From Yuukianura sp. NJ FZ-2021 (lineage: Eukaryota): a stretch of 64,000 bases of DNA. Below are positions 2,534 to 24,606 of this stretch, one piece after another. The stretch lies in assembly GCA_046563655.1 (NCBI GenBank), contig CM102289.1, positions 2,914,001 to 2,978,000 on the forward strand, read 5' to 3'. Made by a program: the position numbers and the translations under genes. The notes under the pieces are model-generated. The model saw only the letters and a program-made list of their open reading frames with translations, had not been told where the DNA came from and made no database searches. Position 1 is the first letter of the stretch. Each line of letters begins with the position of its first letter.

Positions 2534-3532
2534 TGTTATTGGACGGAGTTAAGCGAAGAAATCGATGTGATTTTCAATCTTAACACTCTTACTTAAAAGT
2601 GATGCGAGTCCGGCTAATTCTCTGAATAAACTAAAAGACTAGAGTCAGAAAGTCACGGTACAAGAAAAGAATGAAATTTTGAGTAAAAAGTTCAAAGTTT
2701 AGACCAAAAAACACTATTGTTGCTTTCCAAGAAGGATTTGTTTTAAAAATTGTGTTGAAAACCCTTTTTCAGGTCATTTTTAGAAAAGATTTTTAAAATC
2801 TAAGGGAAGGTTTAGTATTTTATTTTATGATATCCATTTCTGCAGCTTGGTACAAAGTTCTAAAAATATTTTCAATTGTCTGAGGAAACTTCGCATACCC
2901 GGCGTGTCTAACTTTTCAGAAAAAAAAAGTTTGAAATATTTTGTAAAGTCTTTGTGAGGTACAGGTCAAAGGTTTGACCTTAAGTGGGCTTATGCAGTTC
3001 CAATTTTAAGACAAATTGTTAAAACTTGGTTGCGTTTTAGAAAGAAAAAATAATAATTAAACTATCGTAAGTTTTTTTTACCTAAGTAAATGGAATTGAT
3101 TTTTGCAGAGTTGAGAACATGAAAACCTCGGAAACCACAATTTGCTTAACCGGAATTTGACATTGGTCACAAATTAAAAGTTTTTTTTTTCTCAAAAGTG
3201 AAAACAATTAATTAATTTTTCACCAACGATGGTCTGCCAGGTTTGTCTGAACCACAGATTGGTTTCAAATGTCAACAAGGAAGTTTATGAAAAAAGTAGG
3301 ACTTTTGTCAAAAATGTTTGTCTAGATCTTTTCAGATATCCGGACATATAAAATATCCTGGTAATTACGGGACTCACAATTTGTTCAATGAGCTTTTTGT
3401 ACTAACACAAAGGTTAATACACAAAAGTTAATTGAATACGATAAATCTGCAATTCTTTGAAGCTAAAACAAAATCAAATTAACTTTCACAACATTGCTGA
3501 ATTGTGAATTGACTAACTTTAAAGTCTGCAAA

Positions 3533-6500
3533 ATGAAGACATGGAATTCATTTTTACTGTTCATACTACTGATTCAGCTTACAATTTCAGAAGCACGGCG
3601 CAAGGGCAAGGTAACCTTTAACAACTAAACGTAATACTAAAATTACTTAAATATTTAATTGAGTTAAGAATTCAACAGTATCGTCATGGGCTGAACTTAA
3701 AAATTATGGGAAGAAGCAAGCTGTACCCACTCGAAGTTTTTGACGGCCTTCAATTTGCAATTGATCCGCACACAGTTTCCATTGACATCCAAAATGTTAA
3801 CTTGGACCCAGACAATCTTCTGCAAGCACTTGAAGGGCTCAGGCACCTTGAGTCCATTACACTGAAAAATGTCGATTGGACAGGAAACTTTACTAGAAAA
3901 TTGAATTTGAGACGTCTACGCTATCTGCATGTACGTCGACTCGAGTGGGACTTTGACTACGGCTCTCCAGAAGAAATCTTTTCAATGGTCATTGTTCAAA
4001 ATATGACTCAAATGAGTGAAATTCGGATCGAGGGAGAGGCAGAAATGGGCGGCAGCTTAATATTCTATCCAGCAGAGGAAAAACTTGTTCTTGCAGAAGA
4101 TCCGCATAACCTCTACCAGTACTTCAACGTTCGTGCGCTTGATCTGACTTATTGCACACTCAACGTAAGCTTGTTCAATGGAACTGGAGTGACAAGATTT
4201 TCTGGAAGAAGACTACTTGGCCTAAAAGATGGCGTCGTTTCTGGGCTTCTCGAGACGCTTGATTCCGTTGAGGAGTTGGAACTACAAGCTGACACGCAGT
4301 TCCTTGTTGATTTGAACATGTTGCCATCGCCATCGGTAAGAAAAGCCTAACAGAAATATAGCCTAACCATATGCTAATCCACTTTAGTTTGGAATTCCAT
4401 ATTTATGATAGTTTTTCAAGATATTTTTGAACTTAGATTTTGACGCGCCTAGTCGTGCGAAACGGAAACGTAACTTCATCGTTCATATCCGATGCGCTTC
4501 GTTTTCCAACGTTGCAACAACTAATCTTATATTACAGTACTGTCGATATGGCGTCAATCTTGCTAACACAAGCGTCACTCAAAAGCATTGTACTGGACGC
4601 AGTTCAGTTCGCTGGCGGCACTTCAGACCAATTTTTTCTTGAAGCCACAAATTTAACTTCAGTCAAAATTCGAAACTTTCCAATTTTCGACATTTCCAAT
4701 TTGCTTCCAGCTGCTCCGACAGTATTGGACTTGCATCTAGAAAACGTCGAGATTTTCAGAACAACTGAAATTAAATTTGGAAGTTTGGAAATGCTAATAA
4801 TGTCAAACTGCACACTAGACTCGACATTATTTGAAACCTTTGATGAAGTTTTCGAACGTGTTGGACACATTACTATTGAAGGGCGCGGAGACGTCGTCAG
4901 CGGCCCATTTTTAAACAAAATTCTGAACACGTCTGTAACATGGCTGACATTTCTCGGCTTCACATACTGGCAAAAAACTGAAGTTGTCGAATTCGTTCAA
5001 CGCGCCGGCGCACCAACCTACTTGGATCAGATTGAGCTTATCAGAGTCAATGAATCTTGGAACTTGATTCCACACCGAATCGGAACAAGATATAACACGC
5101 GTTTGCGTGATGTATTGATCTATGCATACGCAATCGCCGTATTCTCCGTTATAATTCTCGGTATCATGGGCACTCTGACAAGCATGGTTGTCTTGGTACA
5201 GAAGCCTATGCGCAGTTCAACGAGTTGTTTGCTATTTGCATTAGCAAGTTTTGACACTCTTGTACTCGCGTCGTACCTTCCGTTTGTTCTGATTGGCGCC
5301 GTGTCAATTGTTATGCTGAAACTAGGGTTTGCGGTTTACTACGACGACTATCAATTCCTTTGGTTACATTTCACGTTCAACGATGCCGTTAAAATTGACA
5401 CGCATCAACGTTTCTTTTTCTACCCTCTGTGTAAAACAGGTTAGCTACAACATTTTTCAAAATCATTACTTTTGGGCCAAGGTGCCTTGACAATCGAAAT
5501 ACAACAAATTGCATTTCCTGAAACAGGTTGTCCAATAACTTAGGGTTGCAAAAATCTTTCTGCCAACAATGTATCCCCCTAATTCCTATTAAATTGCATT
5601 CAAATCATTGCCATAAAAAGGCATAGCAACGCAAGTTTTGCAAACTATTTCAAAAAATTAACAGCGTCGAGTTATTCGACAACCTGGTGTAGAATAAACA
5701 ATTTGTTTGTTTACGAACTTTGGTTTGGGATGTTTGAACTTTTTGTTGCAGAATTGGTATTTTTGTATTTAGTGTATACGGGATCGGTGTACATGACGGT
5801 TCTACTGACGGTAGAGCGATACATTGCAGTTTGTTGGCCACTGAAGGCAAAAACGTGGATAACAATGAAAAAGTCTATCATCGCATCTTTTAGTGTGTTG
5901 CTGTTCACCATATTTTTGAATCTCCCGCGATGGTTTGAAGGAAACCAATCCGTTTTGAAAATGTCGCGAGGCGCGAGCCACCTTAAATTTACTCGCTACT
6001 ACACCAAAGGAAGTTGGTTGCGACGTAGACTGTACATGGAGTACTACCAAGGCTGGATTTGGGTGGCATTCCTCTACGTCATCCCGATGTCGATTTTGGT
6101 CGTCTTGAACATACTCATATGGAAGCAGGTTAGCTTAAATTTGCGCCAAAATCTAGAGTTAACGTGTACGTTAGCATGAAACTCGGAAATACTTAATTTG
6201 CAAACACTTTATAGCTAACGAAATAAGCATATTTCATTAGCTCAAAATTCAGACAACCAGAAACGTAGTGAAATTTTTTATTTTACAGATTCGTGCCTCA
6301 GCAGCCACACGACGACAAATGATGCGTTCGTCGAACCAATCCGGCGCAGAAGCATACGACGAAATGTGGGGAATCACAAAAATGCTTCTGACTGTGGTTG
6401 CTGTATTCCTATTGTGCAGTGTTGTAAATTCTATTATTTTCCTAAATTATTTTGGAATTGAGCCAATGGGATTTGAATCCATTGCCTGTATTCCCTTGAT

Positions 6501-6657
6501 TTTCAATTCCTCTGTCAACTTTCTTATTTACGCAATTACAGGTGAAAAATTTCGACGAAATTTGATCAACATCTTACCATTTTGCTCCAAGTTTACGAAA
6601 ATCTATGTTAACGAAAGGTCAGGCACTGTGCGAAGAACAGAGAGCAGTGGTGCATAA
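3533..6657 (+). CDS. Class A GPCR (FMRFamide-receptor-like 7TM) with signal peptide and LRR-like ectodomain, ~820 aa; exons 3533-3610, 3679-4335, 4437-5439, 5773-6128, 6289-6657
   Basis: Signal peptide MKTWNSFLLFILLIQLTISEA; LxxLxL repeats; TM motifs MRSSTSCLLFALASFD, TGSVYMTVLLTVERYIAVCWPL and FNSSVNFLIY; the ectodomain runs into TM1-2 within one ORF (4440-5444); all intron phases are compatible. Confidence 0.85.
5478..5722. mobile_element. MITE of the CAAGG...CCTTG family, in GPCR intron 3
   Basis: Termini CAAGG / CTTTG, internal inverted pair CAGGTTGTCCAATAACT / AGTTATTCGACAACCTG, degenerate 8-bp flanking repeat (TTTTGGGC/GTTTGGGA); similar copies elsewhere in window. Confidence 0.6.
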
Positions 6658-6910
6658 ATTTCTGCGCAAGTGCATTATGTGTGACATTTAAGCGTACATT
6701 AAACATATACGTATACATAATACAGAACTATAAGAAGTACAGCTCGGCATGCTAACTACCGCTTTTGAAAAATTTGTAGGTAATGGCCTCAAGTTAACGG
6801 TAAAGCACAACTCAATAAAAGTTATACTAAGACTAAGCACAAAACCTTGATGTACAGGTTTTAACGTTTACTTAAATGTAAACGTTACATGCAATTGTAT
6901 TATATTTAAA

Positions 6911-8268
6911 TTATGGAAATGTTAAAACTAAATTAACGACAGTGTTAATTACAACAGTAAAGAAAATGTTGATGCAGAAGTTTCGACTGGCAATTTTGAA
7001 CTGCGTTCCGACGTAGACTTCTATTGGTTTACAGGAGTTCCAAAATTTTCGATCAAATTTGGAACAGGACATCGCATTTCTAAATTTTGATTTGGTACAA
7101 TACTCAGAGTTTGCTCGAATATTAACACAGAGTTGATAAATAAATCCGCCTACTATTGCAAATCTAACTGAAATGGTAGTAAACAGCATTAGAAGGAATG
7201 GGTTCAGAGTCGTATTGAATTTGATGAGAGTGAACAACATTGTGATCAAATTCAGGTTTCCGAGATAGTGTGCATAAAATATCCAATTTCCAAGGCTATT
7301 TCCAATAGCCTTCACTGCCAGTTTTATGCAAAGGTAAAACAGCTTGTAGTCCCGCACAAAGCCACGGGCGGGCATTGGGCGGGTCCTGAAAAAAAAAATA
7401 TCCGTTTTTTCATCAAAAAATTATGACAATTTACAAAAAGCATCAGGAAAACTTTTTTGGAAATTGATATTAGAATAGTAATGTAAAATGTCAAAATGGA
7501 TAAACATTTTTAAAAAAAGTGAAGCTACCAGACGCGTTTGAGCAAAACATTTGTTAGGAGAAGGTCCATGATGATGATATTGATTGTGATGACGAGACAT
7601 AGAGCTCCATGGGCAACAGCACCTCCAAATAGCACAGTTTTAAGCAAATTTGCAATTAAATTTTTTCGTGAGCGTAAGATAAAAAATGCTCCATTGACAT
7701 CCGTTGCATAGTGAATCAAAATGAACGTTACAGGAAATACTATTATGGATGTAACGAGCCCAAATGTATTCAAAGGAATGAAGATTCTGGAGTTTTCATA
7801 TTTCTGAACTGTTTTGTCTCCAAGTTGTTTTCCTTCAAAAAAATTCAAACATGAGGAAATTTCTTTAAAAGAAGTTATTTTAAACGTTTTTTTTTTAAAT
7901 TCTTAGTGTATAGATTTACCTAGTGTATGGAAAAGTTGAATGAACTTGTTATGTGTGCAGACCAATGTGTCAGTTGAAGTCAGAAGATAAATTTGTGTCA
8001 AAAGAAAGTATAGAAATGGAGACAGAACTGCCAGGGTCAAAATCCGACTCGAAATTTTCATTCCTCCGATCAAAAGTCGGTACAGTAGCAAACCAACCAA
8101 AAAGCTATTGACAGTTGCCGATACTATTCCAAAAGTGAGCCATATCCATCGAGGTTTTGAAATTTTTAGAAAACCAGTATCACTATCCAGTGTAAAATTG
8201 ATTATTCTGAGATTTGTGCTTGGATAGAACGTCAACTTCATGAACTTTCTTGATCTTTCCGAAAGCAT
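6911..8268 (-). CDS. Gustatory-receptor-like (insect chemoreceptor superfamily) multi-pass membrane protein, 3 exons
   Basis: Three hydrophobic ORFs join in phase (8268-7920, 7862-~7529, ~7385-6911); C-terminus FWNSCKPIEVYVG...TVVINTVVNLVLTF resembles the divergent GR TM7 region. Confidence 0.7.
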
Positions 8269-9296
8269 TTCGACAATACTTTGCTTTATATAGTCACTAG
8301 TTTAGTTTAAATTACGTTGGTAATACTTCCTGTAATTTGGTATTGCCCGGTGTGAAGTGATATTTCTCGCAAGTATAGTAAGTAGTAGTAAGTTAAGTCG
8401 AAGAATTATGAATTTTGTTTATTTGAATTTTTAAAGTTGTTTTTAAAATAAATTTAGCTTTAAGTGGTTTAACTTGTAGTATTCGTTTTGTAAGCAAACA
8501 AAACAAAACACACCTAAAAGCTTAACTTAACAAACTTATACTTCCAAATGTTTTCCAGAAAGAAACTAAAGAAAAAGCTCAGAGTTTCTTTTTCTTGGAG
8601 CGCTACTTGAATAATTGATTATTGTTACGTGCTTGCCCGTTTTTTTGTGAAACTTAAAAAGTTGGAAGGTATAATCAATCACATAAAAGGATTTTTGTGT
8701 TTTCCAAATTTATTGGATTTGAAAATGATATATGAGTAGGCTGAATATGCTGATATGCTGATATGCTTTCAATTGTAATGTATTACGTTGACACAAAATT
8801 AAGCAAAACTACCTATTTGTAATGGCAGGAAATGGCGGAAATACGCCTTGATAGAACAAGAAATTACTTTTAGCTAAGGGCAAAAATCGACCACTTTTTG
8901 GTGTGTTCAATACAAAACTTTAATATGTGGGAAAAAATTGCCAAACAATTTGTGCTAAAATATTTTCCCCATTTTTCTTCTGAATTTTTTCTTTTCTGAA
9001 CCTAACATGTGCCTTCTGCTGCATGTTCGCTTTGAATGCCATGCCTACGTTGTATACGTAGAAATAAAAAAGTTTTAACAAGAACAGATATCTAACAAAC
9101 GGCTAGGTATATAGATTTTAATAACCGTTTTTACTAACAAGACGGACATATAAGTAAGTATTTACCGACGATTTGTAACCTCTTTTGTAACAATAATAAA
9201 TATATCATAACTAAGTATTAGCTATTAAGGCTATATAAGGAGACGATAAATTATCGCGTGCAGACATGGATTTGTTCACAAAACCGGAAAATATAA

Positions 9297-12200
9297 CTAG
9301 ATCTGATTTGCGTACTCATTTCGCACCTCACACTCTACATCTGCGTCATCATTTTTGTTGCAATTTGTTTCTCTTAGCATTTCAATTTTTCCGTCAGTTT
9401 TGGATAATTTGGAAAATGCGGCAAGTGTTTCTCGGATGCTTGTAAAAGAAGGACGTTGACTTGGAATTTTATTCCAACAGAGAAACAGCACGTTCACGTA
9501 AATGGCCTCAGGCGTACGTTTCGGGCGGGACATTCTCAGTCCGTTTTCTAATTCATCTACAAAGTCAAATGTCCATGCCATACCTATGACCGAACAAAAT
9601 TGAAACAAAGTTTAAATTATATTACTAAATTGCATACATGAAAAATTAAAATTTTAAGTTTTACCGGGGTACGGAACTTCGCCAAGTGAAAATATTTCCC
9701 ACAATAGAATTCCATAAGACCACACATCAGACAGAGTTGAGAAGGACAAGTCACGCAGAGACTCTATTGCCATCCAACGCCATGGCAACGGTTCGCGATT
9801 TTTCTTAACATAGGAGGCATAGCCATAGAGTTGGCGCGAAAGTCCAAAATCTGTGATTTTTGCTTGTTTTGTTTCGGTAAGCAAAACGTTTCTGGCAGCC
9901 AAGTCACCATGAATCACCTGTTCAGTCAATTACTAATCAGAGAAAAAGGTTTTTTGAACAAGATTTTTAGCAAAATTACGAAACCTACTTTCCGACTAGC
10001 CAAATACTCCATTCCATCTGCAACCTGCATTGCCCAAGTCATCAAGTCTTGGAAACTAAGCACTCCATCTTCAACATTACTGTACTCTCTGCCGGTTCTT
10101 ATTATGAAAATAAATATACACATAAGTATTTTTTTTTTTTATAAATTGTGTATACAATGTAATTTGGTTTTGATTTAAATTCTAAACATACTGATTTGTC
10201 GTTTCTTGGTATAGGTGACGGTTCACTCTTAAATATTTTTGAAGGTTTCCCAGAGCACAAAACGGAACAAAAATGTACACAACTCCTAAAATTTTGAAAA
10301 ATTTTACAATTTGTGGAAAACTGATTTTTATCATTCTGATGTATACGATTTTTTACATTACCGATTTCCAGGCATCTTGTACTTGCTCCAATAAGTTGAA
10401 CAATGTTTTCATGTGCACCCAGATAAATCATAATTTTGAGTTCAGAAAGAAGAGCTTTCAAGTAAGCTTTGTCTGCATCTTTTCGTGTTGTTTTGACGGC
10501 AACTGGTGTACCGTCGACGCTTCCTTTATACACAACTCCGTAGGCACCAGAACCCAAAATACAGCTTTTGTCTGTTTTAAATTGAAAAATCAAAACAGGA
10601 AACATTGAAAATTTTGAAAGTAATTTTACCAATTTGATATTGGCTCTCGCTCAACTCATAACTTCTGTCGTAAGCAGTGAGATGAACAAATTCGTGAGCG
10701 TATGCGTTTGAATTCCGCTCGGCATTTGCATGGGCTTCGCCGGCCAAAAATTCTTCAATTTCGGCAGTTGTAAACTACAAAAAAAGAGCATGAATACTTT
10801 TTTTAGATGAATTTTTCAAATTTTTGAAAAAAAAAAATTAAAAAAAATAGCTAGACCTGTTCACGTTGATTAAATTTGAAGTAAACAATGGCGCCAATGA
10901 GAATGAAAATGAAAACGACAATGAGGATGCCGAAAAGAATGCCGTAGTTGTTGGCAGTTGATTCGTCGGCTTCAGTTGTATACGTGAACGTTTTCTGATC
11001 AGTACCGTAAATGTTCTCTGCTTTGCACACATATTCTCCGCCGTGAGAACTTTCAACTTTTTGAATTTGGTGTAACAAAGTCCCGTTGGGAGTAAGTATA
11101 GTGTACAATTGATTTCCGCCTTTGTAAAATGAAAGTTTTGGTGTCGGTTGGCCGGTTGCACTGCAAAAGATTCCTTGATTTTTTGCTTCAATGCGTAAAA
11201 CTGTGTCTCTTGAACTTGAGTCGATTTTCGGTGGTTGACCAGCTAAGTTTTTAAAAAATCCTTCAAAAATTGCTATAACAGTTTATACTTTATTAAAGAA
11301 GTGGCTAACATTTGACTTCAAGCGGTAAGGTAATGTGGCGCCAAAAACTTGTGTGAAAAAATGTTGACGCGCATTCGATTCCAACTAGGTCACTGTGCAT
11401 CTGCATTGTAAAATGGGAAGTATCATGGCGAATACCAATCCAGTCGTAGTCAATTCGCTCTGAACAACAAATTTTGACAATTTTATAGTAAAAAATTTCA
11501 AAATTTCAAAAATACTTAAAACAAGTCAAGCTTACCTTCATTCCTACTCCCATTTCGCCAAATTGAAGTCCAAATTGCTGGTTTAACTGCGATGACGGTA
11601 AGAAATTTACATTCAAACGTCACCTTGCTACCAGCATAAACTTCTTTTTGTCCTAAAAGTTTTAGTTTGTAGTACATTCGGGAATCAAACCTTCTGTGAT
11701 CAAATTCAGCCCATTCTAATAAATAAATAAAAAACAGATATAGTTTTAAAAAATCTGTAACAAATTTTGAAAAACAAAAAACAATAAAAAATTTTTTGGA
11801 ACTTACTTGTATCAATGCCTCGAGTTGAAATGTCCCCAAGAAACGGAACTCCAAATTCCACAATTTCCACGTGATCCCCAGATTTGCAAAAAGTCACGCC
11901 ACCTTGCGGATTATGAAGCTTTTCCTCCAATCGAACTTCAAATGAAAGTTCATTTGCTGGAGCCTTTTTGAAAAAAGTCGTGTAGCTTCTGGATACAAAT
12001 TGCTAAAAAAATGTTTTTTCAAAACACTTCTCAAAAGCGTTTTTGTGAATTACTCGTGCTGATGCCCTGTTCTGTTGAAACATTTTTTTCGATTTACCGG
12101 AAATGTGAATTCTCGTCTCATATTCAGCATTGCATAGTTTTCAATTTCAATTGTATTGAGTTGAGATGAAGCTTCGAGGTCATCGACCTTACACGCAACT

Positions 12201-13669
12201 GAAATTTCTACGCCACCTTCACTCGTTTCTTTTGCGTAGTACCGAATTAGTGAGCTTATACCAGAAGGCATCGTGTCATTCAGGCCAAATCGAAATTCTA
12301 CAAATTATTTACTGTCTCAAAATGTATTTAATTTTTAAAATTCCAAAAAAAAATTGCTTTCAGAGCTTACGTTTTGGATCGCCGTCGAGTTTTAATTCCA
12401 GCCGATCACTTTGGTTTTCGTTCCAAATGCAAGTGTAAGTACCGTAGTAAGTGCTAATTTCAGTATTTTCTTTAACTTGGATTTGAAGTCCCTCGCTGGC
12501 GTTTGTAGGTAGCAAAAATTCAATGGATTTATTAACTGTTGAGTCGCTGTTTGTAAATTCGACACTGACATTCCTTCCATAATGGGATAAGACGCATGGC
12601 AAGTAAATTTTTGCGTCACGCACAGAAATCAACGTTTGTGGATTTCGAAGAAAAGATGGCGCTCCGGAATCTAATCAAGGTCGAGCAAACGTTAAACCTT
12701 TTCTAATTCCCAAATTAACAAAAACTTTAATTAAAAAATGTACCTTCCAAAAAGATAAACAGTTTCAATTGAGTTTCATTTCTGTAAATTCCGCGAAACA
12801 CAAAATTTCCAGATCTCGGATAGTCGTGTTTCACATGGGGTGGTTTACCGTTTGCCTTGTTTACGTAATATTTGTATAGTGCTTCAACACTACGAACTTG
12901 CACGTCAACTCCAAACTCAGAAACTGAGCCATTTGTAAATGGAGTAACATTTTTGTACCACTCTACGCTGATGGCTTCAGTTGGCTAAATTTTAAAGTTT
13001 GTTATAAATCAAGGTTTCTATAGCAACAAAATAGCATTAAGAGGTTCAGCAATAAGTCCCGCTTCAGAAAATCTCTCCCCAAACTTTTTTTCACCCAAGT
13101 TTCACCCAGACTTGTTTTGTGCATGTAAAGGTTTGCACCAAAATTAACGTTCAAAATGAATGAAAAAAATTCGGTTTCCAAAAATCGCCCAGCAAACTAG
13201 ACTTGCCGTGATTGTCTTTTCATTTTTGCAATTTTGGGGGAAAGATATTAAAAAGCGACTTATTGCTTAACCTGTCAAAGAGAACTATTTTTTTGTTTAC
13301 GAACCTTGGTTATAAATGTTAAACCTTTTCAATAAAACATACTTAAGTATTTTTTATGAAATATTTTTATACTTGTATTCCATAGTACTGAAAGTCCAGT
13401 GCGTTTGGCGAGGAGCAAATGATGCGTACGGTGTCGTACTCCCCAACGATTCTGATCACGTTAGAGACAATGCATGTTGTGTCAACGTTCGCCGTAGTCA
13501 GCTTGTACAATGCACACGAGATTTCCGCATCGGGAGCAGGATTTACGCATGCGTCGAGTTCACTAAGCCTTTGAAAAGGCTGGACATCTTTGTAATAGAA
13601 TTGAGCAGTTACACCACCCACAAGAGCGGTGAAAACGCAACACAAGAAGACTTTTGTAAACTTCGCCAG
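9297..13669 (-). CDS. Ig-domain receptor tyrosine kinase (PDGFR/VEGFR-like), copy 1, ~14 exons, no in-frame ATG (candidate CTG start at 13669)
   Basis: Signal peptide, ~5 Ig-like domains (e.g. CSATGQPTP...[14 protein letters not shown]), [23 protein letters not shown], kinase motifs [32 protein letters not shown]; all traced exons splice in frame. Confidence 0.9.
13010..13308. mobile_element. MITE of the CAAGG...CCTTG family, in RTK copy 1 intron 1
   Basis: Termini CAAGGTT / AACCTTG flanked by perfect direct repeat GTTATAAAT (13001-13009, 13309-13317); absent from the short equivalent intron of RTK copy 2. Confidence 0.8.
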
Positions 13670-14083
13670 TTTGGAGCTTGCTTAAACCTCTGGATTGTAG
13701 TGGAAATGCTGCCTTTGAGGGTGTAGTGAATTGGCAAGTTGAATTTATCTTAAATTAACACTACCCTAAAACCGTTGTTATTTTGAGAATTAACGTGTCA
13801 CGTCCTTGAGGCTACAACGCATGCTCATATGCCTTCCAAAAGGAAACCAAACAACCGCATCCCTTCCTATTTATTTGTGTTTCCTTGTGCTAAATTTGCT
13901 TCTTACATAATTGGAAAAAAAATGTTGAGTGAAATAGGCTAATCGAACACCTAATGTTAGAAACTCAAATGTTTGCTTTTGTTAGGAATTCAATAATTTA
14001 CTAAGCATTTTTCGTTTTATTGGCCTTTAAACGAACAAAAACTGACATGATTGTCTGTACGGCATTTCTTTTTAAATGAAATT

Positions 14084-17000
14084 TTAATTTCTGTTACTGT
14101 AGACATTTCCAGCAGGTTGTTTCATGTTCATCTCATCTAGAGAGCAACTTACTTTTTCGGTTTGTTCATTTGCAGTCGCAGTATTTGAACAATGATGCAA
14201 CTCAGCAAGCGATTCCTTAATATCGGCAAACGAAGGCCGTTGTGCTGGATTTTTGTGCCAGCAGAGGAACAGAATGTTGACATAAATGGACTCTGGTAAT
14301 CTTTTTGGCCGAGACATTCTGAGTCCATTTTCCAATTCATCAACGAAATCCACAGTCCATGCCATGCCTATAGACACAAAAGCAGTAATTATGTCTTGGA
14401 TTGTGGGAAATTTACGTAGGAAATTTGAAAATTTTACCGGGATAAGGAACTTCGCCAAGTGAAAATATCTCCCACAAAAGAACTCCGTAAGACCACACGT
14501 CAGACAGTGTGGAAAATGACAAGTAGCGTAGAGACTCAATTGCCATCCATCGCCAAGGGAGTGGCTCCTGGTGCTTCTTGACGTAGGATTCGTAGCCATA
14601 AAGTTGGCGCGAAAGTCCAAAATCAGTAATTTTTGCCTGCTTCGTTTCGGTTAGCAAAATGTTTCTCGCAGCCAAGTCACCATGAATGACCTACATTTTC
14701 GAAAACAGATTCAAAAATTTCCAAGCTTACAAAAAATCTAGAATAGAAAATTAACCTTTCGGCTTGCCAAGTATTCCATTCCATCGGCAATCTGAATTGC
14801 CCAAGTCATCAAGTCATTGTAACCGAACATTCCATTTTCCAAATTTTTATACTCCCTGCAATTACAATTTAATATCTTTTTAAACGTGAATGCAAAATTT
14901 AATTTTCATATTAAAGTTAGATGCCAATCAAATTACATATCTGCGGATTCCGCGTAGAGATGACGATTGCTTCTCAGAAATTTTTCCAAGTTTCCCAAAC
15001 CGCAGAACGGAACAAATATGTAAACAACTCCTGAAAAATAACATAAATGTTATAAAAATTTTGCATCAAACTGTTTTTTTTTATTTTTTTTTTTTAATTT
15101 TCAAGCAACTGTGTTACCAATGTCCAAGCTCTTTGTGCTTGCTCCAATGAGTTGAACAATGTTTTCATGCTGTCCTAAGTAAATCATAATTTTCAGCTCC
15201 GAAAGCAGAGCTTTCAAATAAGCTTTGTCTGAATTCTTCTTAGTCGTTTTCACCGCTACCGGTTTACCGTCAACAATTCCTTTGTACACGACACCGTAAG
15301 CGCCAGTACCCAAAATGTCGGTACTGTCTGTAAGACAAAATTTACATGTAATTGCGTTTTAAAATACATTTTTCTGAAAATTTAGCACAAAATTTTGTCT
15401 CTATATTCATAATTTTTGGAGTAGAAGAACATTTACCGATTTGATATTTGTTGTCACTCAATTCGTAACTTTGGTCATAGGGAGTAAGATGTGCAAACTC
15501 ATGTGCATAAGCGACAGAATTCCTTGCAATCTCTTTATCTCCCGCCAGAAAATCTTCTATTTCAGCTCGTGTTAGGCCAACCTGTTACAAAGGAAACAGT
15601 TTTCCGGTTGTGAAGAAACAGTTTTAATATTTTGAAGAATTAGCCTAAAAATTTTTGACTGGTGAAAACAAAAGTGAAATCAAAAGTACTTTTCAAATGC
15701 GATAATGCTTACTTGTTCCTTTCGAATAAATTTGACGTAAATCGCGGCTCCAATTAGAGTGATGAGGAACACTACAACTGGAACTCCTATGAGAATACCG
15801 TAGTTGTTCCCAGCTACTTCGTCTCCTTCAACGGTATAAGTGAACGTCTTTTCGTCAGTACCGTAAATGTTCTCAGCTTTACAGACGTATTCTCCACCGT
15901 GAGAACTTTCAACTTTTTGAATTTGATGCAACAGCGTTCCGTTGGCTGTGAGCGATGCAAACAGTTGACTCCCGGCTTTATACCAAGAAAGTTTTGGTAT
16001 CGGTTTCCCCGAAGCACTGCAAGTGATTCCTTGATTCAGAGCTCCAATTCGTAAAGTCAGATCTCGTGATTGGGAGTCAATTTTTGGCGGTTCACCAGCT
16101 GAGGTACAAAATTTCAAAAATTTGTTTAAGTTTCCATACGCAGGAAAAAGTTTAAAAACTGTGGGTTACATTTGACTTCGAGCGGTATAGAAATATGGCG
16201 CCAAAAGCTGGCGTAGTAGAACGTAGCAGAGCACTCGACTCCGACCAAGTCTTGGTGTATTTGTATTGTAAATTTGGAAGTATCTTCAAGCGGTCCCGTC
16301 CAGTTGTAGTCAACGCGTTCTGCGTGTAAAACAAAATTCCAAATTGTAATGTGTTTGAGAATTTTTACTTTTTGCAAAATTCGATGGTTGTAATTTCTAT
16401 ACCTTCAACTCGAGTTCCGTTTTGCCAAATCGTAGTCCATATTGCTGGTTTCACAACAATTGCAACAATCAATTTGCATTCAAACGTCCGTTTTGTTTCT
16501 GCGTACACTTCATTTTCAGATAAATCTCCCAAAAGTTTTAGTTGAAAATGAATTTGTATATCCGACGTTCTTCTGTCGAAGAATGGCCATTCTAAACACA
16601 AAGTCAAAGAATTTTTTTTTTTTGCAAATTTGTTTTAGTTACTCGTTTTTTACGTTTACAGATACTCACCAGTATCAAACACTCTTTCTGATACTTCCCC
16701 GACGAACGGAACGGCAAATTCCACAATTTGCAAATCGTTTCCAGATTTGCAGTAGGTGGCGCCACCGTAACGCGTATAAAACTTTTCGCCCAAGCTGACT
16801 TTGAAAGAAAGTTCACCGGAAGTTCTTTTTGAAATAGCCGTGTAACTTCGATTTGCAAATATCTTTAAAAGGTTTGAAAGAGGAAATATTTTTCTCAATG
16901 TTGAATTTACTAAAAACTTTTACAGATAATTCTGTAGAAGAAATAATATTACCGGGAAAACAAATTCGCGTTTAAGATTCATCATAGCGAAGTTTTCGGC

Positions 17001-18280
17001 TTCAATTGCAACCAGTTGTGTTGTAGCGTGAAGGTCGTGAACTTTACATGAAACTTGTATTTCGACGCCATCCGGAGTGTCTTTTAAGTAGTACCTGATG
17101 ATAGACCGAGCTTCAGTTGGGATCGTACCATTCAGGCCAAATCGGTATCCTGAAAATCCGACATTAAAAAAATTGTGGAAAACAAAAAATTGAACAATTT
17201 TTTAAGCTCATCAGTGAAGTATTTAGTCGTGGTGAAGAATTCTGGATTATGAAAAATCGGAATTTGGAATTTGCGTTTCAATTTCTCACCTGTTGCAGCA
17301 GAGTCTGCATTGAATTCCAGAGTTAATCGATCAGTTTGTTGATTTTCGTTCCAAATACAAGTGTAAACTCCATAGTAATTGCTGATTTCAGTTGTTTCTG
17401 TAACTGGAATCCGGAATCCACGAAAAGCGTCAATGGGTGGTGCAACGTCAAGGGACTTAACTGTTCCCTCGCTGCTGGTAAATTCTACGCTCACATTCCT
17501 TCCATAATGAGACAAAATGCAGGGCAACTGTATTGTGGAGTCACGCGAAGTGACCTTCGTTTTCATATTACGAAGAAACGACGGAATTCCAGAATCTGTT
17601 CACGCATCAGAGCACAGTGACTTGAATTTTTTTGAAATGAGTGAATTTAAAAAACAGTTATGTTTAATAATACCTTCGAGATACACAAAAATGCTCAGCT
17701 CCGTTTCATTTTTGTAAATTCCGCGAAAAACATAATTTCCAGATCTCGGATAGTCGTGTTTCACATGCGCTGGTTTAGCCTTTCCCTTGTTTGAATAATA
17801 TTTGTACAGTGCCTCAACACTGCGTACTTGCACGTCAACGCCAAACTCAGAAATCGATCCATTTGTAAATGGGGCAACATTCTTGTACCACTCTACTTTG
17901 ATGGCTTCAGTTGGCTAAATTAGACAAATAATTTTTGTTGTTAAAGTATATAACTCAAATATGGCCAAATATTTTGTTTCTACTTGTATTCCGTAGTATC
18001 GAAAGTCTAGTGCATCTGGTGACGAGCAAATTATGCGAATTGTGTTATACTCTCCAACAATTCTGACGACGTTGTTGGCCAAGCATGTTGCTTCGATGTT
18101 GACCCCTGTGACCTTGTACAATGCACAGGTAATAACACCTTCCGTAGGAGGTTTGATGCACGATCTGAGTTGATCTAATGCCTCAAATGGTTTCAAATCT
18201 CGATAGTAGAATTGGGCCTCTACACCAAGCAATGTCAATGCCACTGCACAATATATATACATCCATTGAAGAACGCTCAT
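14084..18280 (-). CDS. Ig-domain receptor tyrosine kinase (PDGFR/VEGFR-like), copy 2, tandem paralog
   Basis: ATG 18280 [22 protein letters not shown] signal peptide; same exon structure as copy 1; [35 protein letters not shown]. Confidence 0.92.
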
Positions 18281-19082
18281 TTTTAAAAAAAGAAATAAAC
18301 GTACACGGAAGCTGTCTATTTTGGAAGCAGTTAATGTTGACTAATTCACACTGATTCACAAAAATTAATGACAGCTTTTTCGACAAGCCTTTTACTGTGA
18401 CGTCTTTTGCATTTTAATTTAACATATTTAAAGGCATGCGCAAAGGTTTACTGCGGTACGCAAAAATAAAACAAGAAACCGCACAACCAATGACTTTAGT
18501 CACCTTATGTTGTTTTGGCTTCCTCAAATTTCATTTCAAGCGATGAGAAAGAGAACGGAAGTGGACTATCCTTTTTCCGAAAAGGAAGATGAGATTGATC
18601 GGTTTTAGCAAAAGTCTCTGGATCTTTTAGAAGAGAATTTAAAACTACAACTTTAGAACACCAAATCAACAGTTTCTTTAAATTTTAAAGTTTCTTTCAG
18701 AGGCAAAAAAAATCCTTTGCAGGTAGTAATTATATAGTGAATAATAAATCGTTTTTTTTAATTTGGATTCAATGTTGGCTTGATACTGATATAAAGAAAA
18801 TGCGGTGAAGGTTTCCTTTAATGCCATTTTTTAAACAGCTTGTGAACAGCATGTTTGTAAATACAGTTTATGTGCTACGTTTAACTTCTGCAATTGGATC
18901 ATCTGGACGCCAGTGAACCAGGTACAATCAAATGTGAGAGTTCAATTTTTAATTTCAACTTTCAATACAATTTTTGATGGATTTTTTTTTTTGAAATTAT
19001 AAGGAGGTTGTCAGATTTATTTCCAAACTAATTTTAAGTTCAAAAGCAAAGCTTCCACAGGAACATTCTTTTTGATGTCCTT

Positions 19083-20535: not shown

Positions 20536-22892
20536 CGACACCCGTTTGTGTTTGAACATCACTTTTTGCAGGACTTGGACCTTGTTTACGCTGTTAATAA
20601 ACAAGAAAACACATTGAGTATCCTAAGTTGTGGAAACGTAAGATCCACATGACAATGGCGCTCACTTCTTTAACAGCCAGTTTTAATTTTAGAACTTTGT
20701 TGGTAAGTACAGCATAGTTTGGGATGAGTACCGCTTCCACTAATGCAGAAATAGTTGCCAACAGACATCCAATTGGCAGCAGCAAAAAGATGATCAAAAT
20801 TCTCGAGCCCAAACTTAATCTTTTTGCCGCGTTCAGTTGTTCTGTCGTCTGTTTCCTTAGGGATGTAATCAGACGTAAATATGCGATTTGTGCATAAATT
20901 CCATAACGGCTGATCATAACTCCGGACTGCATGAGGCGATTAATGCTTGCGCCAAAGTCAAAGCCAGCCTTACCTTTCACAAGATAACCTACAAATTGCC
21001 CATGGGCCAAAATCGTCTTGTCTTCAAAGTAGTATGCCCTTACAGAAATTTTTTTTGAAAAAATCAGAGCGCGATACGCTTGAATGTTCTTCCTGAAAAC
21101 ATTAGCGAATGTGGAATCTGGCAGCAGGAGTCGCTTCTGACAATCCCGTAATCTCGACTTAAAATTCGAGCCACATGGTGGGATTTTAAGATTTTTCAGA
21201 AACTTGTAGTCTGCTCTTTCATTTTTGCCCTGAGCTTCCATTTTATTGAACAAATTGTTCATGTCGTCTGTCACATACAGAGGCAAGTTTCCCTCCAAAA
21301 CCCAGTGAGAGCCTTTAAGCCGTCTCATCCAGTAGTACTGTGCCCATGAGGTAATATACTCTCCGCAACTTTGTCCAACTTTTCCAAATCCAAAGTATGC
21401 ATTGTCTGCTTCGTTGATGAGCTTCTTTAACTGTTCAGGATGACCGCAACACTTCTTGTATAATGGAAATGTTGTAGATAATGTATCAAAGAAAGTGATG
21501 TTTTTGTCCATCGCTTCTTCAATCGACCTCAATTCGTTTCCTGGGAATGGCAAAGCAAGCGACGTTGTAACAATTCCTTTGTAGCAATTAGATATAACGA
21601 GAGCCATGAGGAGGAATGTTACGGTAAATGCTTGAAGGCCTTTCCCGCGCATGCCTGGAACATTCGCCAGAGGAAACCCGATTTCCAGAAGGGTGAGGTA
21701 CATAAAAACCGGAACCTGAAGCGCTACGGCGCGGTATTGTGAACATCCGGCAAAGAATAGGTAAGACACAACAATTGAAATGACAAGGCAAAGCCATGTG
21801 ATTCCAGTGAATGGTCGACTGTAGTCTTCTAGTCCAAATTGTAATCCGTCTCTGTAGCATGTGAGGCCATATGTAGACTGCCATGTGAGCGGGAAATGCC
21901 AGCCTTCTGCCCAAGCTTCTCCGGTGAATGAGAAATACGTATACCGTACATCTATTGTATCTAAAACAAATAGTTTCACTTAGTTGCTTAATTCGTGCTT
22001 TAGTTTTAAAATGAGCTTAAACAAATAAGAAAAGTATTTGTGGATATTGTAATAGTACGCAAATTTACCTATTCCTTCAACAGATTTATTTTGGTTGTAC
22101 GGTGCCGAAAGGAACTGTGTCAACGCTGGTATAGTGAAGTTCCCCAAAAACTTGACATTCCACATCTCCGCCTTTATCCTTATTGCCATTGTTTTCAAAA
22201 CTTTCTTTTGAAGAGCTTCAAAGTCAAGTTTGAGCGGCAATGCCACGACATTTAAAACCTCTTGGGTCAACATTTTGGATGCAAGAACTCCAATTGTAAT
22301 TTGGAATTTGCTGCTCATTGCTCTAGCACCACATTCCTTGTAGATTATTCTAACAAGCAGTCTGTTCTTAAACAAAGCATAGTCAGTCTTAAGTGTTAAG
22401 TATTTGAACGTACGCATGTATCCATCCGCTCGTTCGAAAATACATAAGTCAGTGACTACCAGCAGCCGAGTGCGTTGTAGCCAGTAGGTCGTTTGGAGTA
22501 CAGGTCTTCGTATCACAGTTTCTGGACGTCCGCTTTCCTCCCTCTTGTAAATCTCCGGGTTATACCAGTAGTCCGATAAGTACTTCAAAATATCCTGTTC
22601 CTCTCCGTGCAATTGAGAAAAAAGAGCGATGACTCCAATGCAGTCTACCGTTTTGGTTGTGTAGTGCGGATTGTCCACACCACAAAATGCTTGAGCTGTA
22701 GTTTCAGTAACATTACTTCGTCTTGTGACCTTTCGACACGAGCTGCCTTCGTCCCGCTTCGGTTGGGCCATTTTGCCAAGTTGGCCCAATGTTAAGGCAT
22801 AGGAACTGTAGACATCAGTCAATGCAGAGTACATGATCACATGATTGTAGCAACTGGCCAAACTCCCGCCCAAGAATAGATCCAAGTTCACA

Positions 22893-23126
22893 CACGGCTG
22901 AAGCTATGCTTCGGAGAGCATAGAGATTGCTTGAGACAGCTATCTGGTGGATTTTTTGTGTATAACTAGTTTCCCCTTCTCTGAGAAGAGAGGGAGGGAC
23001 TGCGCCCTTAACAAAACAGTGCCTCCCTCTCTTCTCAGAGAAGGGGAAACTAGTTAAACACAAAAAATCCACCAGATAGCTGTCTCAAGCAATCTCAATG
23101 CTCTCCGAAGCATAACTTCAGCCGTG
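22893..23126. mobile_element. 234-bp fold-back MITE with 8-bp TSD (hAT/P-like)
   Basis: ~110-bp inverted arms starting CACGGCTGAAG with ~4 mismatches and ~14-nt loop; perfect TSD AGTTCACA at 22885-22892 and 23127-23134. Confidence 0.95.
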
Positions 23127-23617: not shown

Positions 23618-24606
23618 AGGTTTTTTGACCCGGAAGTATTCAGGTCTTACCGGAAACCGGTTACCCAACCTCAGACCATGAGAAATTCATCTATGAAGCC
23701 AGATATTGAAAACGAGTGAAGTGGTTCCACAGTAGGCTATCAGCAGGAACAAAAAGTAAAGTCTTCCCAAGTCTTACCCCATAAAAGTGTTCCAGTATAT
23801 GAAAGAAAATTACACTAAAATTTTCGGAATTTTTTTTCAACTCTAAAGGGTGCCGCAGACATGTTACAGATTAGCAATGGACGCCCTATTAGAATGTACG
23901 CATCTAAGCCCGTTTATTCTTATTTATTGTTATTCGCTGTAGAGTAGCTTTTTTCGTTTCAGTGAAAGAAACTGAAATAAATGAAATAAACTGAAAATTG
24001 AAAGAAACTACAGCTGTTTTGTTTCAGTCCATAAATTTAGGTTGGGAAAGCAAAACTTCGTTTCACCTTAAAGAAATGAAGAAAATTGAAATTAACTGAA
24101 ACTCAAATACCCACAACATACCCACAACATACCCACAACATACCCACAACATACCAACAACATACCCACAACATACCAACAACATACCCGCAACATACCA
24201 ACAACATACCCGCAACATACCAACAACATACCCACAACATACCAACAACATACCCGCAACATACCAACAACATACCCGCAACATACCCACAACATACCCG
24301 CAACATACCAACAACATACCCGCAACATACCAACAACATACCAACAACATACCCGCAACATACCAACAACATACCAACAACATACCCGCAACATACCCAC
24401 AACATACCCACAACATACCAACAACATACCCGCAACATACCCGCAACATACCCACAACATACCAACAACATACCCACAACATACCAACAACATACCCACA
24501 ACATACCAACAACATACCCGCAACATACCCATAGTGACCAGCAGACGGACAGACAGATTCGGGGAGAAACATAAAGCAGCGAACGACGGTAACTCCTGAA
24601 TAAGTA
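23618..24606 (-). mobile_element. Putative DINE-1/HINE-like non-autonomous Helentron carrying the 11-bp minisatellite
   Basis: Subterminal inverted repeats TATTCAGGTCTTACCG (23637-23652) / CGGTAACTCCTGAATA (24587-24602), 14/16 match; (CAGA)n-like microsatellite at ~24542-24558; central tandem array; abuts an A/T homopolymer. Confidence 0.5.
24105..24531. repeat. 11-bp minisatellite, ~38 copies (ACATACCCACA / ACATACCAACA / ACATACCCGCA)
   Basis: Directly visible head-to-tail array of three unit variants. Confidence 0.97.

What the first reader, a model, noticed from the sequence alone, without database searches (positions are those of the whole stretch)
3533..6657. LRR-like ectodomain fused to an FMRFamide-receptor-type GPCR: not an LGR
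Seen: one in-phase gene model encodes a signal peptide, ~470 aa of LxxLxL repeats (LRHLESITLKN, LRRLRYLHV, VRALDLTYC, FPTLQQLIL, NLTSVKIRN, SLEMLIMSNC) and a 7TM with TGSVYMTVLLTVERY and NSSVNFLIY; the LRR/TM1 junction lies inside a single exon, so the fusion is not a gene-model artefact. Known: established LRR-GPCRs (LGR/glycoprotein-hormone/relaxin receptors) have a different 7TM clade and Cys-capped hinges; FMRFamide-type receptors have short N-termini. Inference: an independently evolved LRR-GPCR, possibly a pattern-recognition or protein-ligand receptor.
Basis: partly seen in the sequence, partly recalled or inferred. Interest (0 to 1): 0.8.

Follow-up and report, generated by a model that had tools for sequence, protein, structure and literature searches.

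The report
LRR-capped peptide-type GPCR, not LGR
This is a real five-exon animal gene for a cell-surface receptor that joins a large leucine-rich-repeat outer domain to a seven-helix receptor of the FMRFamide/peptide-receptor kind, a combination otherwise known only from the unrelated hormone receptors called LGRs.

Summary
Window 3533-6657 (+) carries a five-exon GT-AG gene. It encodes a signal peptide, an ectodomain of about 440 aa and a rhodopsin-class 7TM. I move one acceptor to 5773, which gives 820 aa.

- **Fusion:** the ectodomain/TM1 junction lies inside exon 3, and the same fusion sits in single ORFs of at least 17 divergent relatives, all unnamed metagenome fragments.
- **LRR fold:** counting the LxxLxL motif is no better than chance. 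AlphaFold2 models (pLDDT 87.7 and 82.7) give about 17 strand-turn repeats. The 50 best entries for each model are almost all LRR proteins by title (Z up to 12.6). A family profile also hits LRR proteins (E = 2e-7).
- **7TM type:** it aligns end to end, at 28-32% identity (E down to 1.6e-44), with short-N-terminus receptors that databases name 'FMRFamide receptor(-like)'. The best solved relatives are TRH, neurotensin and vasopressin receptors.
- **Not an LGR:** LGRs never appear in the sequence searches. The ectodomain has two cysteines, no Cys caps and only about 10 residues before TM1.
- **Selection:** a second haplotype differs mainly at third codon positions (26 of 34 listed changes), and all 12 listed indels lie outside the coding sequence.

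Ligand and function are untested, and no LGR sequence could be put in a tree. I rate it a new variant of a known kind.

The parts
3533..3610 (+). Exon 1: start codon and predicted signal peptide (residues 1-26: n-region MK, 12-residue hydrophobic core, small residues before a likely cleavage site near residues 19-21)
   Evidence: Sequence read directly. GT donor at 3611. No signal-peptide predictor was available, so this is inferred.
3679..4335 (+). Exon 2: N-terminal half of the LRR ectodomain (residues 27-245), about 8-9 strand-turn repeats with one irregular hairpin insertion
   Evidence: AF2 with 12 sequences: pLDDT 82.7, pTM 0.77, but the other four models score only 62-68. VIA-align: best 50 entries are LRR-type, Z 7.5-10.1. 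Aligns with the N-terminal part of relatives' single ORFs. In the listed variants, 18 of 20 differences in this exon are synonymous.
4437..5111 (+). Exon 3, first part: C-terminal half of the LRR ectodomain (residues 246-470). Eight regular repeats with strands every 21-25 residues, then a helix plus beta-hairpin cap that ends about 10 residues before TM1
   Evidence: AF2 with 24 sequences: pLDDT 87.7, pTM 0.79. VIA-align Z 10.1-12.6, all 50 best entries LRR-type. The Foldseek rows shown are LRR proteins, but none reaches E <= 1e-3. Profile hits to the phytosulfokine-receptor LRR (E 2.1e-7) and to LRRC8C/D.
5112..5439 (+). Exon 3, second part: TM1, ICL1 (MRSSTS motif), TM2, long ECL1 and the start of TM3. 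It ends in a phase-1 donor after ...YPLCKT
   Evidence: Same open frame as the LRR. AF2 helices at residues 466-498 and 506-540. Profile hit to the TRH receptor TM1-2, E 2.7e-10. The donor G|GT is conserved in 6 of 6 family genes.
5773..6128 (+). Exon 4 (revised start): rest of TM3 with YTGSVY...ERY (ERY at 594-596), TM4, ECL2 without cysteine, TM5
   Evidence: Pfam 7tm_1 36.9 bits against a cut-off of 30.5. 33% identity to P0019, E 6e-17. The AG acceptor directly before two bases plus the YTGSVY codons is present in 6 of 6 family genes. The revised model scores higher against P0045 and P0019 with fewer gaps.
6289..6657 (+). Exon 5: ICL3, TM6 (FLLCSVVN, no CWxP), TM7 (NSSVNFLIY, an NPxxY variant with F), helix 8 (GEKFRR), C-tail and stop codon
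   Evidence: 36% identity to P0019, E 2e-10. The same TM7 motif type occurs in L005, P0026 and P0027.

Best explanation
The locus is an intact gene under purifying selection. It encodes an 820-aa class-A (rhodopsin-type) GPCR. Its N-terminus is a secreted, glycosylated, cysteine-poor leucine-rich-repeat solenoid of about 17 repeats, placed about 10 residues above TM1. Its 7TM belongs to the FMRFamide-receptor / Srw-like peptide-receptor clan, not to the LGR clade. It is one member of a divergent multigene family, so far seen only as unnamed fragments of eukaryotic DNA in metagenomes. All members share the LRR-TM1 fusion and two intron positions.

The architecture therefore arose by a separate fusion of an LRR domain onto a peptide-type receptor, which makes it convergent with LGRs.

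Inferred mechanism, not shown: the concave face of the LRR captures an extracellular protein or peptide ligand. Because the linker is so short, binding would be passed directly to the long, conserved ECL1 and the helix bundle. The bundle keeps ERY, the TM7 N..NF..Y motif and helix 8, so it probably signals through a heterotrimeric G protein.
For: **Gene model**
- Canonical in-phase introns.
- The acceptor at 5773 and the donor at 5439 are conserved in 6 of 6 family genes.
- The exon 2/3 join gives a protein collinear with relatives that have no intron there.

**Selection**
- A roughly 5% divergent haplotype contig spans the locus.
- Of the 34 listed coding differences, 26 are at third codon positions (binomial P = 3e-7), and 24 are synonymous against 10 non-synonymous.
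- 12 of 12 listed indels fall in introns or the 3' UTR of the revised model.

**Family**
- phmmer of exon 3 against 1.84 billion representatives gave 23 hits at E <= 1e-3. Seventeen carry the ectodomain plus TM1-2 (best E 4.8e-30, 30% identity). Six are ordinary short-N-terminus GPCRs.
- In loci L003, L004 and L005 the TM3-5 exon follows the LRR-TM1-2 exon in order. L005 and, in part, L004 also show the TM6-7 exon. In L001 a single match runs from the LRR through TM5.

**LRR fold**
- AF2 models, VIA-align and Foldseek.
- The profile search hits LRR proteins.
- Pfam LRR_At5g56370 is above its cut-off in 1 of 20 family rows, and LRR families appear below cut-off in 4 more.

**7TM type**
- The spliced 7TM aligns over about 330-340 residues with P0045 (32%, E 1.6e-44) and P0019 (33%, E 2.8e-38).
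- P0019's relatives are named 'FMRFamide receptor(-like)' in molluscs, annelids, nemerteans and a brachiopod.
- Pfam 7TM_GPCR_Srw hits TM1-2 in 15 of 20 family rows.
- PDB searches rank TRH, neurotensin, vasopressin V1a, NMU, motilin and GPR139 receptors first.
- The family forms one clade (SH-aLRT 100) beside a collembolan 'FMRFamide receptor'.
Against: - No transcript evidence is available, so the splicing, the signal-peptide exon and expression are all inferred.
- No LGR sequence could be included in the tree. The tree is a quick, midpoint-rooted search with a long-branch warning at exactly the join that places the family.
- The language-model look-alike search put LGR, TSH-receptor and 'GRL101-like' clusters nearest to exon 3 (scores 0.77-0.80, which is the lead-only range).
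- The N-terminal LRR model matches TSHR, FSHR and LGR4/5 ectodomains at Z 9.1-9.5, tied with decorin and tubulin cofactor E.
- TM6 lacks the CWxP tryptophan and proline, and TM7 has NF instead of NP, so canonical activation is not assured.
- The names 'FMRFamide receptor-like' are automatic annotations, not tested functions.
- Four of the five AF2 models of exon 2 were of middling confidence.
Confidence: 0.78

Rival explanations
1. It is an ordinary neuropeptide receptor for an FMRFamide-like or other small amidated peptide that binds in the helix bundle. The LRR domain would be an accessory module for ligand capture, dimerisation, localisation or cell contact, rather than the primary ligand-binding site.
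For: The 7TM is collinear with peptide-receptor relatives at 28-32% identity. ERY, TM7 and helix 8 are kept. TM1-TM2 is conserved more strongly than the LRR: median pairwise identity 39% against 20%.
Against: The LRR sits about 10 residues above TM1 and would cover the entrance to the bundle (inference from the model). TM6 has lost the CWxP motif. The ectodomain is conserved in length and repeat register across at least 17 family members, which suggests it does essential work.
Confidence: 0.25
2. It is a very divergent member of the LGR family (the glycoprotein-hormone, relaxin and GRL101 type) whose 7TM has drifted beyond recognition.
For: The overall architecture is the same. The language-model search lists LGR, TSHR and GRL101-like clusters nearest (0.77-0.80). 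TSHR, FSHR and LGR4/5 ectodomains are among the tied best structural matches of the N-terminal half (Z 9.1-9.5).
Against: LGR-type chains carry both LRRs and a 7TM, yet none is in the best 60 of 228 matches of the LRR+TM1-2 profile, nor in the best 60 of 137 or of 404 matches for TM3-5. None of the 23 hits of the exhaustive search carries LGR-type Pfam domains. The ectodomain has only two cysteines, with no LRRNT, no Cys-rich hinge and no LDLa. There is positive full-length similarity to FMRFamide-receptor-like proteins.
Confidence: 0.05
3. The gene model is an artefact or a pseudogene: two neighbouring genes, or dead exons, that happen to read in phase.
For: No RNA evidence could be obtained.
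Against: The LRR-TM1 junction lies in one open exon in the window and in single ORFs of relatives. The splice positions are conserved. Variation between haplotypes is biased to third codon positions, and the listed indels avoid the exons.
Confidence: 0.03

Closest known systems
LGRs: leucine-rich-repeat-containing GPCRs of types A, B and C (glycoprotein-hormone receptors, LGR4-6, relaxin receptors RXFP1/2, snail GRL101)
   Same: A class-A 7TM preceded by a large N-terminal LRR solenoid. The LRR halves are structurally as close to TSHR, FSHR and LGR4/5 ectodomains as to other LRR proteins (Z 9-10.8). By analogy, the LRR is the likely site of macromolecular ligand capture.
   Different: The 7TM is not LGR-like in any sequence search. 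There is no Cys-capped LRRNT, no Cys-rich hinge and no LDLa module, and the linker to TM1 is only about 10 residues. It has about 17 repeats; a review read in passages (PMC3510462) gives 7-9 for type A. That review describes LGRs as 'the odd ones out' among rhodopsin-like GPCRs because of their large ectodomains.
FMRFamide receptor (Drosophila FR, CG2114), the 'FMRFamide receptor-like' expansions of lophotrochozoans (for example Platynereis orphan GPCR 28), and the nematode Srw family as defined by Pfam PF10324
   Same: The 7TM is collinear from TM1 to helix 8 at 28-32% identity. Shared features are the T-x-S-x-Y...ERY-x-AVC-x-P block in TM3, the N-S-x-x-N-F-x-x-Y motif in TM7, and Srw-type TM1-2.
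   Different: Those receptors have N-termini of a few tens of residues. In the sequences read (P0019, P0023), 40-100 residues precede TM1. This family has about 440 residues of LRR instead. It forms its own long-stemmed clade. Its ligand is unknown.
Ciona intestinalis orphan 'LGR-like' receptor ci0100151424 (Kamesh et al. 2008, PMC2396169; passages read)
   Same: [quoted passage not shown] That is a precedent for LRR-bearing class-A receptors outside the classical LGR groups.
   Different: The paper still files it within the LGR-like cluster and uses it as an outgroup. No FMRFamide-receptor-type 7TM is reported. I could not compare sequences.
Adhesion GPCRs with LRRs (ADGRA2/3 = GPR124/125)
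   Same: LRRs in the extracellular region of a 7TM receptor.
   Different: These are class B2 receptors with GAIN/GPS, Ig and HormR domains (recalled, and from listing-level titles). None of these domains was found here.

Membership tests
Leucine-rich repeat (LRR) solenoid fold | Tandem units of 20-30 residues, each giving one short parallel beta-strand, stacked into a curved solenoid | tested here: met
   AF2 exon 3: strands at 4-8, 28-32, 50-54, 75-79, 98-102, 119-123, 144-148 and 169-173, then a cap; pLDDT 87.7. AF2 exon 2: 8-9 such strands, pLDDT 82.7. VIA-align: best 50 entries are LRR-type, Z 10.1-12.6 and 7.5-10.1.
Leucine-rich repeat (LRR) solenoid fold | Sequence consensus LxxLxLxxN/CxL detectable above chance | tested here: inconclusive
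   The regex count is not above shuffles. The window's exons fail Pfam LRR cut-offs. However, the family profile hits the PSKR1 LRR (E 2.1e-7), LRRC8C/D, APL1B and FBXL2, and 1 of 20 family rows passes Pfam LRR_At5g56370.
LGR (LRR-containing GPCR, rhodopsin delta group) | The 7TM clusters with glycoprotein-hormone, LGR4-6 and relaxin receptors | tested here: not met
   No LGR-type chain is in the best 60 rows of three PDB sequence searches. No LGR-like protein is among the 23 hits of the exhaustive search. The best similarities are to FMRFamide-receptor-like, TRH and neurotensin receptors. Caveat: no LGR sequence was available for an explicit tree.
LGR (LRR-containing GPCR, rhodopsin delta group) | Cysteine-capped LRR (LRRNT) and a Cys-containing hinge between the LRR and TM1; LDLa module in type C | tested here: not met
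   The ectodomain has only two cysteines (C185, C370), both inside repeats. The cap ends about 10 residues before TM1. No LRRNT, GnHR_trans or Ldl_recept_a hit in Pfam.
Rhodopsin-class (class A) GPCR | Seven TM helices with an E/DRY motif at the end of TM3 and an NPxxY-type motif in TM7; match to Pfam 7tm_1 | tested here: met
   Seven hydrophobic segments. 7tm_1 at 36.9 bits, above the 30.5 cut-off. ERY at 594-596. TM7 reads NSSVNFLIY, with F in place of P, as in its nearest relatives.
FMRFamide receptor clan (FR / frpr / 'FMRFamide receptor-like' / Srw-like) | Full-length 7TM similarity to members, stronger than to other GPCR groups | tested here: met
   E 1.6e-44 with 32% identity to P0045, and E 2.8e-38 to P0019, whose relatives carry these names. 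Srw hits on TM1-2 in 15 of 20 family rows. In the tree it sits beside the Orchesella 'FMRFamide receptor' (long-branch warning).
FMRFamide receptor clan (FR / frpr / 'FMRFamide receptor-like' / Srw-like) | Orthology to a receptor shown to be activated by FMRFamide-type peptides, and activation by such peptides | not testable with these tools
   No deorphanised reference sequence could be brought in. The names are automatic. A ligand assay is needed.
FMRFamide receptor clan (FR / frpr / 'FMRFamide receptor-like' / Srw-like) | Short extracellular N-terminus | tested here: not met
   About 440 residues of LRR lie before TM1, against 40-100 residues in P0019 and P0023.

The most novel reading that the evidence does not exclude
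A lineage of small invertebrates has built, independently of LGRs, an expanding family of LRR-GPCRs. In this family a fast-diverging LRR surface (median 20% identity between members) sits on a conserved peptide-receptor signalling core (39%). The family would serve as a diversified recognition system for microbial, food or conspecific macromolecules: a G-protein-coupled counterpart of Toll-like or variable-lymphocyte-type LRR receptors.
Probability: 0.15. Interest if true: 0.85.

Novelty: new variant of a known kind. Interest (0 to 1): 0.62.

Why it matters
Until now, LGRs have been treated as the one exception among rhodopsin-like GPCRs in carrying a large LRR ectodomain. A second, independent LRR-to-7TM fusion on a peptide-receptor scaffold would show that this architecture is evolutionarily accessible more than once.

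It also gives a natural comparison for how an LRR domain can drive a class-A bundle without a hinge or a tethered-agonist region. And it points to a receptor family that is missing from annotated proteomes and visible only in metagenome fragments.

If the family proves to be large and its LRR surface under diversifying selection, it would be a candidate for a new type of invertebrate recognition receptor.

Tried and rejected
- **Word-indexed protein searches.** Exon 3 with 'longer' lengths found nothing. Exon 4 with 'longer' found only 2 proteins. The index is too coarse for this family.
- **Own genome.** None is held for this window, so paralogues could not be counted. tblastn of the model against the window found no second copy.
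- **Metagenome loci.** A narrower alignment, A2, gave 5 loci.
- **Expression.** No RNA holder is listed for the locus, so splicing and expression could not be checked.
- **Motif counting.** The LRR motif count is not above shuffles.
- **Foldseek against PDB.** The rows shown are LRR proteins, but none reaches E <= 1e-3. The VIA-align search was used instead.
- **LGR-type chains.** None appears in the best 60 rows of the PDB sequence searches. The lower rows were not visible to me.
- **Careful maximum-likelihood search.** It did not finish in 300 s, so the quick tree is reported.
- **Earlier findings of this scan.** Look-ups by place, by sequence and by words returned nothing relevant.
- **Literature.** Eight full-text searches found no paper describing an LRR ectodomain on an FMRFamide-receptor-type GPCR. 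'FMRFamide receptor' together with 'LRR domain' returned 0 papers. Subscription journals are outside the library.
- **First exon-4 acceptor.** My original choice (exon start 5752, 827 aa) is rejected in favour of 5773.
- **Source organism.** It could not be named. The neighbouring genes are those of an animal.
Full report
**1. What is at the coordinates**

Reading window 3400-6800 and the stop-to-stop frames gives a plus-strand gene. Its exons are 3533-3610, 3679-4335, 4437-5439, a fourth exon ending at 6128, and 6289-6657. All introns are GT-AG and all joins are in phase.

I first took the AG at 5750-5751 as the acceptor of exon 4, which gave 827 aa. Comparison with five related genes changed this. 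In all 6 of 6 genes (the window and L001-L005) an AG lies exactly two bases before the codons for Y-T/S-G-S-V-Y. In all 6, the upstream exon ends with G|GT after Y/F-P-x-x-K/R-T/I. The conserved phase-1 intron therefore ends at 5772 and exon 4 starts at 5773, giving 820 aa.

Three results favour the revised model:
- It aligns better with ordinary relatives: 147 against 140 bits for P0045, and 129 against 124 bits for P0019, with fewer gaps.
- The 21 bases it removes translate as ELVFLYL, which would be an insertion inside TM3.
- A divergent haplotype has a 22-base plus 2-base deletion over just this stretch.

**2. Is it a live gene?**

No RNA run holds the locus, so expression is untested. DNA contigs from public runs include a 15.8-kb contig that spans the whole stretch with 160 substitutions.

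The tool printed 40 of the 300 differences. Of these, 34 lie in coding exons:
- 26 are at third codon positions (P = 3e-7 under equal use of positions);
- 24 are synonymous and 10 are not.

All 12 listed indels lie in introns or after the stop codon of the revised model. This is the signature of a translated frame under purifying selection.

**3. The fusion is real and is a family trait**

The ectodomain-to-TM1 junction lies inside exon 3, in one open frame.

An exhaustive phmmer search of exon 3 against 1.84 billion representative proteins gave 23 hits at E <= 1e-3, 12 at E <= 1e-10, and a best hit of 4.8e-30 at 30% identity. By sequence:
- 17 hits carry a homologous ectodomain followed by TM1-TM2;
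- 6 are ordinary GPCRs with short N-termini.

The 8 family proteins looked up are unnamed ORF calls on short metagenome contigs. All 15 family ORFs that reach the end of the exon stop shortly after ...Y-P-L-N-K-T-G. The G is the last exon base read together with the GT donor.

Several relatives (P0002, P0004, P0010, P0024, L002) hold the equivalents of the window's exons 2 and 3 in one uninterrupted ORF. The window's exon 2/3 join is collinear with them, without an indel.

Five related loci came from one metagenome. In L003, L004 and L005 the TM3-5 exon follows the LRR-TM1-2 exon in order. L005 and, in part, L004 also show the TM6-7 exon. In L001 a single match runs from the LRR through TM5.

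The window holds only this one copy. The genome is not held, so paralogues there could not be counted.

**4. The ectodomain is an LRR solenoid, shown by fold and profile rather than by motif**

Motif and single-sequence tests fail:
- The window's exons do not pass any Pfam LRR model; the best is LRR_RPS2 at E = 0.05.

Structure prediction succeeds:
- AF2 on exon 3 with a 24-sequence family alignment gave pLDDT 87.7 and pTM 0.79. It shows eight short strands spaced 21-25 residues apart, a helix plus hairpin cap, and then two long helices, TM1 and TM2.
- AF2 on exon 2 with 12 sequences gave pLDDT 82.7 and pTM 0.77, again with 8-9 stacked strands and one irregular hairpin. The other four models scored only 62-68.

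Structure comparison agrees:
- Aligning the exon 3 model to 48,161 PDB representatives gave 171 chains at Z >= 8. The 50 best entries are LRR-type (FBXL17, Skp2, TOL-1, internalins, TLRs, SDS22, LGR4/5 and others) at Z 10.1-12.6, with 157-199 aligned residues in all but one row, which has rmsd 17 A.
- The exon 2 model gave Z 7.5-10.1, again LRR-type. Its best matches include decorin, tubulin cofactor E, TSHR, FSHR and LGR4/5 ectodomains, all tied.
- Every Foldseek row shown was an LRR protein, but none reached E <= 1e-3.

Sequence profiles agree too:
- The family profile matched the phytosulfokine-receptor LRR (E 2.1e-7), LRRC8C/D, APL1B, FBXL2 and ANP32A.
- One of 20 family rows passes Pfam LRR_At5g56370, and four more have LRR hits below cut-off.

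The ectodomain (residues 27-465) has nine N-x-S/T sites and only two cysteines. It therefore has no LRRNT or LRRCT-type caps. A 26-residue first exon looks like a signal peptide, but this is inferred.

**5. The 7TM is of the FMRFamide-receptor / peptide-receptor type**

- Pfam 7tm_1 passes on exon 4.
- The best non-family hits of the exhaustive search are complete short-N-terminus GPCRs (P0019, P0023). P0019 matches exon 4 at 33% (E 6e-17) and exon 5 at 36% (E 2e-10).
- The spliced 7TM aligns over about 330-340 residues at 28-32% identity with 142 of the 145 stored proteins. The best are P0045 (1.6e-44) and P0019 (2.8e-38).
- P0019's relatives are named 'FMRFamide receptor' or 'FMRFamide receptor-like' in molluscs, annelids, nemerteans and Lingula, and 'Orphan GPCR 28' in Platynereis. 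These names are automatic.
- Pfam's Srw model hits TM1-2 in 15 of 20 family rows, 7 of them above cut-off.
- Among solved structures, the nearest by sequence are peptide receptors. TM1-2: TRH receptor (2.7e-10), CCR1, nociceptin, NMU2 and NPY1 receptors. TM3-5: neurotensin-1 (7.8e-6), vasopressin V1a, TRH, GPR139 and motilin receptors.
- A quick maximum-likelihood tree of 56 rows puts the window and four locus-derived relatives in one clade (SH-aLRT 100) on a long stem. Next to it are a collembolan 'FMRFamide receptor', P0027, a midge protein with P0026, and a nematode protein. The tool warns that long branches meet there, and the careful search did not finish.

**6. Why it is not an LGR**

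LGR-type chains (TSHR, FSHR, LHCGR, LGR4/5, RXFP1) are present in the PDB and carry both LRRs and a 7TM. None is in the best 60 of 228 matches of the LRR+TM1-2 profile, nor in the best 60 of 137 and of 404 matches for TM3-5. None of the 23 hits of the exhaustive search has LGR-type domains.

The Cys-rich caps and hinge that define the LGR types are absent, and the cap ends about 10 residues before TM1. The defining role of ectodomain and hinge comes from the review PMC3510462, read in passages.

Evidence pointing the other way:
- the language-model search listed LGR, TSHR and GRL101-like clusters nearest, at 0.77-0.80, which the tool itself rates as a lead only;
- LGR ectodomains are among the tied structural matches.

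Both are expected from shared architecture. I could not place an LGR sequence in a tree, and that remains the main gap.

**7. How it probably works (inferred)**

The conserved parts are TM1-ICL1-TM2, the ECL1 end Y-P-L-N-K-T, TM3 (Y-T-G-S-V-Y...E-R-Y), TM7 (N-S-S-V-N-F-x-x-Y) and helix 8. TM1-ICL1-TM2 includes the M-R-S-S-T-S motif and has a median pairwise identity of 39%. The LRR is much more variable, at a median of 20%.

The most economical reading has three steps:
1. The concave face of the LRR binds a protein or peptide.
2. The short linker and the long ECL1 couple that event to the bundle.
3. The receptor signals through G proteins.

TM6 lacks CWxP, and there is no ECL2 cysteine. The cysteine at 577 is an asparagine (N-K-T) in most relatives. 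Activation details may therefore differ from textbook class-A receptors. A rival reading, at about 25%, is that a small peptide still binds the bundle and the LRR is accessory.

**8. Novelty**

Eight full-text searches found no description of this architecture. The nearest precedent I read is a Ciona orphan LRR-GPCR whose TM region is unlike relaxin-type LGRs (PMC2396169, passages read). The amphioxus repertoire paper (PMC2246102, passages read) reports LRRs only in adhesion GPCRs.

The family is absent from named proteomes among the hits I obtained. I rate it a new variant of a known kind: LRR-GPCRs exist, but this is an independent fusion on a different 7TM clade with a different, uncapped and hinge-less junction.

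Noticed in passing
window 5448-5780 (intron 3 of the gene), and 60696-60910 (-): Contig depth in intron 3 rises to 5,000-29,600, against about 200-400 over the exons, in all four runs, and many contigs break off here. This marks a high-copy interspersed repeat of about 250 bp. A 69%-identical copy lies in an intron of the flavin-oxidoreductase gene.
   Followed up: partly
window 10102-18340 (-): Receptor-tyrosine-kinase-like gene or genes with Ig I-set domains (Pfam PK_Tyr_Ser-Thr and I-set). Two very similar Ig-plus-TM exons at 10851-11282 and 15680-16165 suggest a tandem duplicate.
   Followed up: no
window 24063-24871 and 28676-29298: Two tracts of short tandem repeats that are open in several frames on both strands, for example PTTYPQHT(H/N)NI units and CAVAQFVRCCAVCALLRSL units. 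They look like minisatellites rather than genes.
   Followed up: no
window 27733-28218 (-), 56417-57247 (+), 58201-59112 (+), 59648-61385 (-): A cluster of metabolic genes that is unusual for an animal: arylamine N-acetyltransferase, an unassigned intronless 276-aa ORF, an intronless class-I methyltransferase, and an Old-Yellow-Enzyme-type NADH:flavin oxidoreductase. Acquisition from microbes is possible but was not examined.
   Followed up: no
window 6911-8301 (-) and 32036-33591 (-): Multi-exon ORFs rich in hydrophobic helices with no Pfam match. The first lies immediately downstream of the LRR-GPCR gene on the opposite strand. They may be lineage-specific multi-pass membrane proteins, possibly chemoreceptor-like.
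   Followed up: no
window 20594-22903 (-), 25103-26005 (-), 30197-31780 (+), 35771-39600 (-), 45031-45390 (-): Ordinary animal neighbours: a large two-ORF membrane protein without a Pfam hit, an M28 peptidase, an ammonium transporter, a GH35 beta-galactosidase with a Thr/Pro mucin-like linker, and an Islet-like homeodomain exon. With gene spacing of about 4-5 kb and introns of 68-333 bp, they point to a compact invertebrate genome.
   Followed up: partly
loci L001-L005 and window, TM5/ICL3 boundary: A second intron position is shared by the window, L001, L003, L004 and L005, the five genes aligned there: phase 0, directly after ...I-W-x-Q, followed by a GT donor that reads as V. L002's contig ends before this point.
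   Followed up: partly
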